Shown here: positions 36,992 to 39,900 of the stretch, one piece after another | Numbering within the stretch: position 1 is the first letter of the stretch | Layout: each line of letters opens with the position of its first letter | DNA from: Escherichia coli | GTDB taxonomy: Bacteria > Pseudomonadota > Gammaproteobacteria > Enterobacterales > Enterobacteriaceae | Assembly (NCBI RefSeq): GCF_041886205.1 | Contig: NZ_CP169029.1 | Reading direction: 5' to 3' (one strand) | Length of the DNA stretch: 64,000 nucleotides | Made by a program: the position numbers

Positions 36992-39900
36992 TAAATTTAA
37001 TGCAGCATCTATCGCCGGATGCGATGCTTTACTGAACGCAGCCTGAGCCTGTAATAAACTTGTCATTTCCTGATTTTGATATGCTCATCCCAACATCAGA
37101 AGAAGGTTAAATTATGGATGACAAACCATTGCAGGCTCTGGCTAATGAACTCAAAACACCGGCTCAAGAAAGTCAGCGTAAGGGCTTCTTCCGACTGCAA
37201 CAGGTGAAGAAAAACCAGCCCCATATTATCTATATCCCCGCCAAGCATCAGGGGCCCCTGCCTGACATCGCCTGAACATATTCCCCCACGCAACCTGCCG
37301 CACTGACATAGCCCACACAATAGGCGTTTCATCCGCCTGTAGCACCGGATGCATGAGCGATTTCTTATAGTTATTCCTTTGCTTAATAACGATTATTTCC
37401 GGGTCGTTCGCTCTCGTATTTTCTTTAATACGTCAGAGCTACATGGGCCGTAATACAGCATGTACCAGACCCGACACGGCATTTCTGACCAGGGAAAAAG
37501 TCAACGATGAGTAGTTATATCAGCGCAAATGACGTCCTGTGGCTCCTTTGCGGTGACCACATTCACGTCTCCGGCGCTGCCAGAGGATATTTATTTCAAG
37601 GATACGTAGCATTATGGCTAGCTTTAAAGACATCTGCCCATTCGCCCCCGCCATTCCCCCATCTTCCGTTAACACAGGCGTACGACGCCCGCCAGGGCGG
37701 CTCTTCCTGTCGGTGGAACTCAAGAATCAAATTTTGCAGAACATGAAGTATCTCAGCCCGCAAAAATTCAGCTGGGGTGATGCCCCCTGGCAGATCATTG
37801 ACCTCAGTATCGCGGGCAAAGTGAACATACAGGTGGACAACAATACCATCATCACGTTGGAGACTCCCCTGAATCAGCAACATAACGAGTTCATGATGGT
37901 CGCCAAATGGTGCGAATGGGCTATACAGCAGGATAGTTTGCAAGAAAACCTGCAAAAAAACCTGTACAAAATCCTGGAAGAAAACCAGCAAAACAAACTG
38001 TCAGAAATCCCACAAGAGGACCTGAAAGAAAGGCTGAAAGAAATCAAGGAAGATATCCTGGAAGAAAACCAGTCAGCAAGCCAGATTGAAGACCGGGCAG
38101 AAGCATTGCGCAGAATGAAGGAATGTCTCATAACAAGACAGAGTATGCTCGATCTTAGCAACCTTGGACTGACTTCACTCCCTGAAAATTTGCCTCCACA
38201 TCTGATTGAATTTAACTGCAGTAGAAACGTGTTGACCGCGTTACCGGAGGTAATGCCAAAGGGGCTGAGAGTGCTTGAATGTATGGAGAACTTTTTGATC
38301 TTGTTACCGAAGGTGCAGCCCCCGAAACTGATGGTACTGAAGTGCTATGAAAACTATATTATCTGGCTGCCTGAACTGTCGACTAACCTGAGAGTGATTA
38401 ACTGTTCTGAAAACTTCTTGGAATTTTTACCGCCGTCGATGCCCCAGTACCTGTATAAACTGTCCTGTGCTGGCAACAATATTAACTCAATACCTGATGA
38501 GGTGCTTGAGAACTTGACTCGCCTGAAGGTATTTGAACCGCCCCGGGAATCCTGGAGACTAAACTTCCTGAGAAAGAGGTAAACAGGATGACTAAAAATA
38601 CTCGTTTTTCCCCCGAAGTCCGTCAACGGGCAGTCCGTATGGTTCTGGAAAGTCAGAGCGAATATGACTCACAATGGGCGACAATTTGTTCCATTGCTCC
38701 AAAGATTGGCTGTACGCCGGAGACTCTGCGTGTCTGGGTTCGCCAGCATGAGCGGGATACCGGGGGCGGTGATGGAGGGCTCACCACCGCTGAACGTCAG
38801 CGTCTGAAAGAGCTGGAACGTGAAAATCGTGAACTGCGCCGCAGTAACGATATCCTTCGCCAGGCTTCCGCTTATTTTGCGAAGGCGGAGTTCGACCGCC
38901 TCTGGAAAAAATGATGCCACTGCTGGATAAGCTGCGTGAGCAGTACGGGGTCGGACCGCTATGCAGCGAACTGCATATTGCCCCGTCAACGTATTACCAC
39001 TGTCAGCAACAGCGACATCATCCGGATAAACGCAGTGCCCGTGCGCAGCGCGATGACTGGCTGAAGAAAGAGATACAGCGCGTATACGATGAAAATCACA
39101 AGGTATACGGTGTGCGTAAAGTCTGGCGTCAGTTGTTACGGGAAGGTATCAGAGTGGCCAGATGCACTGTGGCACGTCTCATGGCGGTTATGGGACTTGC
39201 CGGTGTTCTCCGGGGTAAAAAGGTCCGTACGACCATCAGCCGGAAAGCCGTTGCCGCAGGCGACCGCGTAAACCGTCAGTTCGTGGCAGAACGACCTGAC
39301 CAGCTGTGGGTGGCTGATTTTACTTACGTCAGCACATGGCGGGGCTTCGTCTATGTGGCGTTCATCATTGATGTGTTTGCCGGATACATCGTGGGGTGGC
39401 GGGTCTCATCGTCCATGGAAACGACATTCGTGCTGGATGCACTGGAGCAGGCGTTATGGGCCCGTCGACCGTCCGGCACGGTCCATCACAGTGATAAAGG
39501 TTCTCAGTATGTATCGCTGGCCTACACACAGCGGCTTAAGGAAGCCGGATTACTGGCATCAACAGGAAGTACAGGCGACTCGTATGACAACGCGATGGCG
39601 GAGAGCATCAATGGTCTTTACAAAGCGGAGGTAATACACCGTAAGAGCTGGAAAAACCGTGCAGAAGTGGAACTGGCCACACTCACGTGGGTGGACTGGT
39701 ATAACAATCGACGATTGCTGGAAAGGCTGGGCCATACTCCTCCGGCAGAAGCAGAAAAAGCTTATTATGCTTCCATCGGAAACGATGATCTGGCAGCCTG
39801 AGTTCACAGATAAAACACTCTCCAGGAAACCCGGGGCGGTTCAATTTGACTGTTCTAGTAACGATTTGATCTCTTCACCACGGCTGCCGCCCAAACTAAT

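What the first reader, a model, noticed from the sequence alone, without database searches (positions are those of the whole stretch)
37000..37613. Unannotated 53-codon ORF with a Shine-Dalgarno-like sequence at the start of the cvrA-dadX insertion
ORF 37114..37275 (MDDKPLQALANELKTPAQESQRKGFFRLQQVKKNQPHIIYIPAKHQGPLPDIA) is preceded by GAAGAAGG at the right spacing and sits just upstream of the LRR gene. It is too short for the supplied ORF track. It could be a small accessory protein co-acquired with the LRR gene, or noise. The following about 240 bp also contain a second ORF (37507..37746) in a different frame from the LRR gene, so the 5' end of the LRR gene may itself be damaged.
Basis: inference. 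Interest (0 to 1): 0.35.

Follow-up and report, generated by a model that had tools for sequence, protein, structure and literature searches.

The report
Decayed IS256-family transposase start, not a gene
The 53-codon ORF downstream of cvrA is the decayed front end of an IS256-family (IS1414-like) insertion sequence, whose ribosome-binding site and start codon it inherited; most E. coli strains that carry it have it broken, so it is an ordinary relic and not a helper gene for the neighbouring leucine-rich-repeat gene.

Summary
The ORF is at 37114..37275 with the stated peptide, GAAGAAGG lies at 37099-37106 seven bases before the ATG, and the second ORF is at 37507..37746.

The ORF is not an accessory gene. 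Window 37045-37151 is collinear with the left end of IS256-family elements of the IS1414 group: terminal inverted repeat, 5' UTR, SD, ATG and codons 1-13 (82-86% identity, E 1e-25 to 1e-32). A second block, 37198-37230, matches transposase codons of about 91-101. The catalytic domain, right end and target duplication are gone.

Across 11 alleles the ORF has dN/dS 0.98, against 0.01 for cvrA. Codon 27 is TGA in 477 complete E. coli genomes and CGA in 165. Stop-loss, frameshift and deletion alleles also occur beside intact LRR genes. PGAP annotates the plus-strand ORF in some strains, minus-strand ORFs in others, and nothing in one.

The LRR gene's 5' end is intact, with the same start at 37614 in all alleles. 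An IS3-family insertion at about 38537-39846 breaks the gene.

By-product: the K-12 small protein YmgM uses the same IS-derived SD, ATG and first codons in the opposite orientation, fused to antisense cvrA. K-12-type strains are deletion derivatives that keep the LRR gene's last 23 codons.

The parts
37045..37075 (+). Left terminal inverted repeat (IRL, GAGCCTGTA...) of a decayed IS256-family, IS1414-like insertion sequence
   Evidence: It is collinear with the IRL of IS copies in L008, L010, L017 and L018. It forms part of the 110-nt blastn match at 82-86% identity, E 1e-25 to 1e-32.
37076..37113 (+). Transposase 5' UTR with the SD (GAAGAAGG at 37099-37106, then a 7-nt spacer)
   Evidence: The sequence was read. 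The same GAAGG-N8-ATG arrangement is present in the IS1414-family copies.
37114..37275 (+). 53-codon ORF, a relic of the transposase gene. Codons 1-13 match tnp 1-13, about 14-21 match tnp 18-25, and about 22-41 match tnp about 83-103. The rest has no detectable homology. There is no DDE domain.
   Evidence: Two collinear DNA blocks, 37045-37151 and 37198-37230. BLASTP gives two collinear HSPs, E 6e-6 and 2e-7. No Pfam or NCBIfam hit. dN/dS is 0.98 and codon 27 is TGA in 4 of 11 alleles. TGA is found in 477 genomes and CGA in 165.
37040..37143 (.). Imperfect inverted repeat (37040-37068 against 37114-37143) between the flank plus IRL and transposase codons 1-10. It is the microhomology at which the K-12-type junction lies.
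   Evidence: Local alignment. The K-12 junction was read base by base.
36866..37066 (-). YmgM-like 66-codon ORF, antisense to the cvrA 3' end. Here it lacks the IS-derived SD and start that K-12 YmgM uses.
   Evidence: PGAP marks it as a partial pseudogene.
37345..37613 (+). Conserved non-coding block upstream of the LRR gene, presumed to be its promoter and 5' UTR. It is not IS-derived.
   Evidence: pi is 0.0155, against synonymous diversity of 0.067-0.079 in the neighbouring genes. No IS homology. No Rfam hit. Fold z-score -0.99 for the folded stretch 37345-37640.
37507..37746 (+). 79-codon ORF overlapping the LRR start out of frame, probably spurious
   Evidence: It is open in 11 of 11 alleles, but the variable sites in its non-overlapping part that I read against its frame (AGT>CGT, AAT>AGT, CTC>CAC) all change the amino acid. 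No Pfam hit.
37614..38536 (+). 5' part (about 308 codons) of the YopM/SlrP/SspH/IpaH-type LRR gene. The 5' end is intact.
   Evidence: The start is the same as in the intact 479-aa genes. PDB matches to YopM, SlrP, SspH1/2 and IpaH LRR domains, E 1e-27 to 1e-13. The alignment to L001 breaks at 38536.
38537..39846 (+). IS3-family insertion sequence (about 1.3 kb) that interrupts the LRR gene
   Evidence: Breakpoints come from megablast against the intact allele. The two ORFs match NCBIfam transpos_IS3.
39844..40363 (+). 3' part of the LRR gene. Position 40293 is where the K-12-type deletion junction falls.
   Evidence: The K-12-type spacer matches from here onward.

Best explanation
The 53-codon ORF is a pseudogene fragment. 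An IS256-family element of the IS1414 group once sat directly downstream of cvrA with its left end toward cvrA. Internal deletions removed most of the transposase gene, including the DDE domain, and the right end is no longer detectable. What remains is the left inverted repeat (37045-37075), the transposase 5' UTR with its SD, the ATG, and an in-frame patchwork of early transposase codons that reaches a stop after 53 codons.

The SD at the right spacing is therefore genuine, but it is inherited rather than evolved for this ORF. The ORF has no conserved coding function and drifts neutrally. It is not needed for keeping the LRR gene intact.

It may still be translated at some level if transcribed, for instance by read-through from cvrA. 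That step is inference, based on the same IS-derived start driving detectable YmgM in K-12.
For: Homology to the IS:
- Window 37045-37151 aligns collinearly, on the same strand, to the first about 110 nt of IS256-family copies: IRL, UTR, SD, ATG and codons 1-13. Identity is 82-86% and E is 1e-25 to 1e-32.
- 37198-37230 aligns to IS nt 362-394.
- At protein level there are two collinear HSPs to transposase residues 1-31 and 77-103.
- The reference IS is labelled 'IS256-like element IS1414 family transposase' by PGAP. Its N-terminal part hits PF00872 (1e-49) and NCBIfam IS256.
- Decayed IS1414 copies are reported as widespread in E. coli (PMC12585946).

Lack of constraint:
- dN/dS is 0.98 for the ORF against 0.01 for the last 99 codons of cvrA.
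- Codon 27 is TGA in 4 of 11 alleles whose LRR genes are intact.
- TGA is found in 477 complete genomes and CGA in 165.
- Stop-loss (65 aa), a 1-nt deletion and a 129-bp deletion also occur.
- 29 protein variants of 29-86 aa have frameshifted C-termini.
- Exhaustive HMMER found only the ORF's own E. coli alleles.
- PGAP annotation is inconsistent between strains.
Against: - The N-terminal 26-31 codons are more uniform than the rest (pi 0.036; dN/dS 0.44-0.47). This rests on about 1 synonymous and 2 non-synonymous differences per pair, and it is not distinguishable from the two control frames (0.59 and 1.91).
- No right inverted repeat or target-site duplication was found, so the right edge of the relic is undefined.
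- Identity to any extant IS copy is only 82-86%, so the exact parent element is not identified.
- Expression was not measured.
- The genome counts come from a clonally biased collection. They rest on exact 28-nt words, so some alleles were missed.
Confidence: 0.9

Rival explanations
1. A real small protein that works with the LRR gene, as an accessory factor or chaperone co-acquired with it.
For: It lies 338 bp upstream on the same strand and has a good SD. PGAP calls it in several genomes.
Against: - LRR genes are intact in strains where the ORF stops at codon 27 or is partly deleted.
- The stop allele outnumbers the sense allele, 477 to 165.
- dN/dS is about 1.
- The sequence derives from a transposase gene.
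- It has no homologues outside its own E. coli alleles.
- From general knowledge, T3SS chaperones are about 130-aa acidic dimers, not 53 residues.
Confidence: 0.02
2. A chance ORF in intergenic DNA, with no relation to any gene.
For: ORFs of this size are common by chance. It shows no constraint.
Against: The ORF start, the SD and two internal blocks are collinear with the IS256-family left end and transposase gene, at E values down to 1e-32.
Confidence: 0.03
3. A domesticated N-terminal transposase fragment or upstream ORF with a regulatory role, for example a trans-inhibitor of IS1414-family transposition or a translated leader that affects downstream transcription.
For: The same IS-derived start is translation-competent in K-12, where YmgM was detected by SPA tag (PMC6001520). 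The first 26 codons are relatively uniform. Truncated transposase products that inhibit transposition are known in other IS families (general knowledge).
Against: - The relic ends at about transposase residue 103, before the weak helix-turn-helix-like matches at residues 105-125.
- The N-terminal dN/dS is not different from the control frames.
- It lies 338 bp from the LRR start, and the deletion allele removes its 3' third without loss of the LRR gene.
Confidence: 0.05

Closest known systems
Decayed IS1414 / IS256-family insertion sequences in E. coli (McVeigh et al. 2000; PMC12585946)
   Same: The left inverted repeat, the 5' UTR, the SD-ATG spacing and early transposase codons are collinear with these elements. 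Decay by internal deletion matches what is reported for most chromosomal IS1414 copies.
   Different: Identity to any extant copy is only 82-86%. The transposase catalytic region, the astA-bearing segment, the right inverted repeat and the target duplication are all absent. About 200 bp of some 1.3 kb is still recognisable.
YmgM of E. coli K-12 (67 aa; Pfam PF23693; detected by SPA tag, PMC6001520)
   Same: It uses the same kind of IS256-family left-end module (SD, ATG, codons MDDKQLQA) at the same cvrA-dadX locus.
   Different: In K-12 the module points the other way and reads antisense into the cvrA 3' end. The K-12 fragment is 97/97 nt identical to an extant IS copy but only about 83% identical to the window's relic, so it is probably a separate, younger IS copy. 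Apart from the first about 9 residues the two peptides are unrelated, and the 53-aa ORF does not hit PF23693.
PGAP 'hypothetical protein' WP_000342119.1 / WP_023908772.1 cluster
   Same: WP_000342119.1 is the identical ORF annotated in RefSeq genomes.
   Different: The annotation is unstable. Other strains have minus-strand ORFs called at the same place, or nothing at all.
Type III secretion chaperones or small accessory genes next to effector genes
   Same: It lies upstream of, and on the same strand as, a YopM/IpaH-type LRR gene.
   Different: It has no homology to such genes and the wrong size. It is not maintained together with the LRR gene.

Membership tests
IS256 family (IS1414 group) insertion sequence | Terminal inverted repeat matching the family's IRL | tested here: met
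   37045-37075 aligns to GAGCCTGTACATAGATTTGTGTAATTGCC of four IS copies, as part of the 110-nt match with E 1e-25 to 1e-32.
IS256 family (IS1414 group) insertion sequence | Transposase gene start (SD, ATG, N-terminal codons) at the family's fixed distance from the IRL | tested here: met
   The alignment is collinear through codon 13. BLASTP HSP to transposase residues 1-31 has E 6e-6.
IS256 family (IS1414 group) insertion sequence | Mutator-type DDE transposase domain (PF00872 / NF033543) | tested here: not met
   The 53-aa ORF has no Pfam or NCBIfam hit, whereas the reference IS N-terminus hits PF00872 at 1e-49. Only residues of about 1-25 and 83-103 are traceable. The sequence is a relic, not an IS.
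IS256 family (IS1414 group) insertion sequence | Right inverted repeat and 8-9 bp target-site duplication | tested here: not met
   No match to the IS 3' end anywhere in 36990-37700.
Functional small protein gene | Reading frame kept open in orthologous loci | tested here: not met
   TGA at codon 27 in 4 of 11 alleles and in 477 genomes against 165 with CGA. Stop-loss, frameshift and deletion alleles also occur.
Functional small protein gene | Purifying selection on the frame (dN/dS well below 1) | tested here: not met
   dN/dS is 0.98 overall. The N-terminal value of 0.44-0.47 is not distinct from the control frames. cvrA gives 0.01.
Functional small protein gene | Ribosome-binding site and start codon | tested here: met
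   GAAGAAGG, then 7 nt, then ATG. These are inherited from the transposase gene.
Functional small protein gene | Evidence of translation | not testable with these tools
   The only evidence is indirect: the homologous start drives detectable YmgM in K-12 (PMC6001520).
YmgM (PF23693) | Match to the family profile | tested here: not met
   No hit for the 53-aa ORF at E up to 1, whereas K-12 YmgM scores 1.6e-51. Only the first about 9 residues are shared.

The most novel reading that the evidence does not exclude
The IS256-family left end may act here as a portable, translation-competent start module that creates lineage-specific small ORFs in whichever direction it points: YmgM in K-12-type strains, and the 53-codon or 26-codon peptide in LRR-bearing strains. 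On this reading the conserved 26-residue N-terminal peptide has acquired a function, for example damping IS1414-family transposition or affecting expression of the LRR gene.
Probability: 0.04. Interest if true: 0.4.

Novelty: new member of a known kind. Interest (0 to 1): 0.17.

Why it matters
The result mainly serves as a correction. A 'hypothetical protein' that PGAP propagates through hundreds of E. coli genomes is an IS256-family transposase relic and should not be read as an effector-associated gene.

The by-product is of modest interest to people who study small proteins. YmgM of K-12, which is experimentally detected and has its own Pfam family, turns out to be a chimera of an IS-derived start and the antisense strand of cvrA. 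Its apparent conservation is therefore largely that of cvrA.

The locus also shows that the K-12 cvrA-dadX spacer is a deletion scar of a YopM/IpaH-type LRR gene, and not the ancestral empty site.

Tried and rejected
- **Rfam.** A scan of 36800-37800 at a permissive threshold gave only a meaningless lncRNA hit at E 0.44.
- **Promoter and terminator scan.** Nothing on the plus strand beyond chance.
- **Protein searches.** Pfam and NCBIfam gave nothing on the ORF. The word-indexed search and the exhaustive HMMER search with the 53-aa peptide found only its own E. coli alleles and missed the transposase link. The link appeared only at DNA level, after a literature hit on YmgM and an unexpected multi-copy match of the K-12 spacer.
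- **Invertible (phase-variable) segment.** I first thought 37040-37143 was one, because it is reverse-complemented in K-12-type strains. I rejected this as the main reading. The two versions are only about 83% identical while their flanks are about 97% identical, and the K-12 version is 97/97 identical to an extant IS copy. All 11 LRR-bearing alleles have the same orientation.
- **Predicted intermediate.** I searched for an LRR gene carrying a full IS at position 40293 with a synthetic junction query. No genome out of 5426 had it, so the two-IS deletion model remains inference.
- **Other species.** The genome-contig scan with the LRR protein returned only one contaminated MAG contig, so nothing was learned about other species.
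- **RNA fold.** Folding the conserved upstream block gave z -0.99.
- **Literature.** A search for an established name for the LRR gene (EspR family) was inconclusive. One search was wasted on 'ymgM', which matched journal DOIs.

Full report
**1. Observation.**
The window is E. coli chromosome with the gene order ldcA, cvrA, an LRR gene, dadX, dadA. GAAGAAGG lies at 37099-37106, followed by 7 nt and the ATG. The second ORF, 37507..37746, also exists. ORFs of this length are common by chance: 98 ORFs of at least 30 aa lie in the surrounding 9 kb. The ORF is not unannotated in public data. In strain LHM10-1, which is 100% identical over 36995-37620, PGAP calls it hypothetical protein WP_000342119.1.

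**2. What it is.**
The clue came from outside the ORF. A paper on K-12 small proteins lists YmgM (67 aa, [14 protein letters not shown]...) between dadX and cvrA (PMC6001520). Its first residues resemble those of the 53-aa ORF. Comparison with a K-12-type spacer showed that window 37061-37143 is the reverse complement of the K-12-type sequence.

When that spacer was searched against 5426 complete E. coli genomes, its inverted 103 nt matched up to 22 places per genome, including 532 places on plasmids, under 'IS256 family transposase' annotations. Reading one such copy showed that the 103 nt are the left end of the IS: the terminal inverted repeat GAGCCTGTACATAG..., a short UTR, GAAGG, the ATG, and the first codons MDEKQLQALANELAKNLKTPEDLSQ....

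The evidence that the window ORF is a relic of this element is as follows.
- Window 37045-37151 aligns collinearly to this left end at 82-86% identity against four independent copies, with E from 1e-25 to 1e-32.
- A second collinear block, 37198-37230, matches IS nt 362-394, which encode QLVKKNQTRIT.
- BLASTP of the commoner allele gives two collinear HSPs to transposase residues 1-31 (E 6e-6) and 77-103 (E 2e-7).
- PGAP labels these elements 'IS256-like element IS1414 family'. The N-terminal 190 aa of the reference copy hit PF00872 (1e-49) and NCBIfam IS256.

The ORF is therefore the transposase start, followed by an in-frame patchwork left by internal deletions. No DDE domain, right inverted repeat or target duplication remains. 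Decay of IS1414 by deletion is described as the rule in E. coli (PMC12585946).

**3. Is the frame maintained?**
I aligned 11 alleles: the window, nine complete genomes and one metagenomic contig.
- Codon 27 is TGA instead of CGA in four alleles. In the three of these that are annotated complete genomes, PGAP calls an intact 1437-nt LRR gene.
- One allele has lost the stop codon (65 aa), and one has a 1-nt deletion.
- One allele lacks the equivalent of 37212-37340.
- Nei-Gojobori dN/dS is 0.98 for the ORF and 0.01 for the last 99 codons of cvrA.
- The N-terminal 26-31 codons give 0.44-0.47 on about three differences per pair. The two control frames give 0.59 and 1.91.
- Thirty-nucleotide probes that need an exact 28-nt word found the TGA allele in 477 genomes and the CGA allele in 165. 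The collection is clonally biased and some alleles are missed, but the broken form is clearly the commoner one.
- The protein database holds 29 variants of 29-86 aa whose C-terminal thirds differ by frameshift.
- Exhaustive HMMER against 1.8 billion representatives found nothing beyond these alleles.
- PGAP annotates the plus-strand ORF in five genomes, a minus-strand ORF in three and nothing in one.

**4. The K-12 form and YmgM.**
BW25113 carries 97 nt identical to an extant IS256-family copy, from the IRL terminus to ...CAATTGCAGGCTC. After that point the sequence continues as the reverse complement of the DNA downstream of cvrA. The resulting ORF is exactly the published YmgM. YmgM is therefore nine IS-derived codons fused to the antisense of the cvrA 3' end.

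On the other side, the IRL terminus abuts CATCAAGGGTGAAGCG..., which is the LRR gene from window 40293 to its stop. Positions 145-385 of the K-12-type spacer match the LRR 3' end and its downstream DNA in LRR-bearing strains at 94-99.6%. K-12-type strains are therefore deletion derivatives of an LRR-bearing ancestor.

The K-12 fragment is only about 83% identical to the window's relic, while the flanks are about 97% identical. The simplest model is inference. A second, younger IS inserted in minus orientation at 40293. A deletion then joined the old IRL region (AGCCTGAGCCTG) to the similar direct repeat formed by the reverse complement of transposase codons 7-11 (AGCCAGAGCCTG). No intermediate was found in 5426 genomes. 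A simple inversion of one element, or active phase variation, fits less well: all 11 LRR-bearing alleles share one orientation.

**5. The second ORF and the LRR gene.**
The ATG at 37614 is the first start codon in its frame after a stop. It is at the same position in all 11 alleles, and it is the PGAP start of the intact 479-aa genes. The 79-codon ORF 37507..37746 is open in every allele. The variable sites in its non-overlapping part that I read against its frame (AGT>CGT, AAT>AGT, CTC>CAC) all change its amino acid, and it has no family match. I regard it as spurious.

The LRR gene in the window is broken elsewhere. Alignment to the intact allele stops at 38536 and resumes at 39844, and the gap holds two ORFs that match the IS3 family. 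Residues of about 151-364 of the protein match the LRR domains of YopM, SlrP, SspH1/2 and IpaH proteins (E 1e-27 to 1e-13), without a NEL ligase domain. Homologues are confined to E. coli and Shigella and vary between 76 and 95% identity.

**6. How it works.**
Three points are shown. The SD, the ATG and the first codons are those of an IS256-family transposase gene. The rest of that gene is gone. The frame is not maintained in the population.

Three points are inferred. The ORF has no function of its own. It may be translated at a low level if the region is transcribed, for instance by read-through from cvrA, because the homologous start yields detectable YmgM in K-12. The weak helix-turn-helix-like matches of the transposase lie at residues 105-125, beyond what the relic retains, which argues against a role as a DNA-binding inhibitor.

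**7. Verdict.**
This is an ordinary IS relic carrying a misleadingly good ribosome-binding site. The accessory-gene reading and the damaged-5'-end reading are both rejected. The YmgM connection and the deletion origin of the K-12 spacer are minor but new-looking by-products. I found no paper that states them: the only paper in the searched library that mentions ymgM by name is the small-protein study.

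Noticed in passing
window 36866-37066 (-); L011 1501-1777: K-12 YmgM is experimentally detected and has its own Pfam family (PF23693). It is a chimera of nine codons plus the SD from an IS256-family left end (97/97 nt identical to an extant copy), fused to the antisense strand of the cvrA 3' end. The window keeps the antisense part as a 66-codon ORF without the IS-derived start.
   Followed up: yes
window 40293-40363; L007 2645-2885: K-12-type strains retain the last 23 codons of the LRR gene next to an IS end. The short K-12 cvrA-dadX spacer is therefore a deletion scar, not an empty site. 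The predicted intermediate was not found in 5426 genomes.
   Followed up: partly
window 37614-38480: The LRR gene has dN/dS of 0.8-1.1 across 11 alleles yet stays open in most strains. The window is identical to strain LHM10-1 over 36995-37620 but only about 95% identical in the LRR body. This suggests recombination mosaicism, diversifying selection, or both.
   Followed up: partly
window 37345-37613: This non-coding block upstream of the LRR gene is about four times less diverse (pi 0.0155) than synonymous sites of the neighbouring genes. It has no Rfam match and no significant RNA fold. It is presumably a constrained promoter or 5' UTR.
   Followed up: partly
window 38537-39846: An IS3-family element of about 1.3 kb splits the LRR gene. 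O145 strain RM9872 has another IS3-family insertion further 3' in the same gene. Typical O157:H7 strains have an IS3-family element replacing everything after window position 37108.
   Followed up: partly
window 36995-37044: The 50 nt between the cvrA stop and the IS relic are unusually diverse (pi 0.074). They contain a short hairpin-like, REP-like motif (GCATC...GCCGGATGC...GATGC).
   Followed up: no
window 37323; L003, L004, L012, L014-L016: There is a 29-bp insertion/deletion polymorphism (CGCGTTTCAGACTGCTCAGTATCTGTAGT) that partly repeats the following sequence. L015 also has a 19-bp insertion near 37458.
   Followed up: no
L003, L004, L013, L015 (cvrA annotation): PGAP marks cvrA as 'incomplete, missing C-terminus' in strains where it also calls a YmgM-like minus-strand ORF. 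The cvrA 3' end aligns without a stop, so this looks like an annotation artefact.
   Followed up: no
(E. coli genomes): A few matches to this chromosomal region (1-4 places) lie on records labelled as plasmids. These may be misassigned replicons.
   Followed up: no
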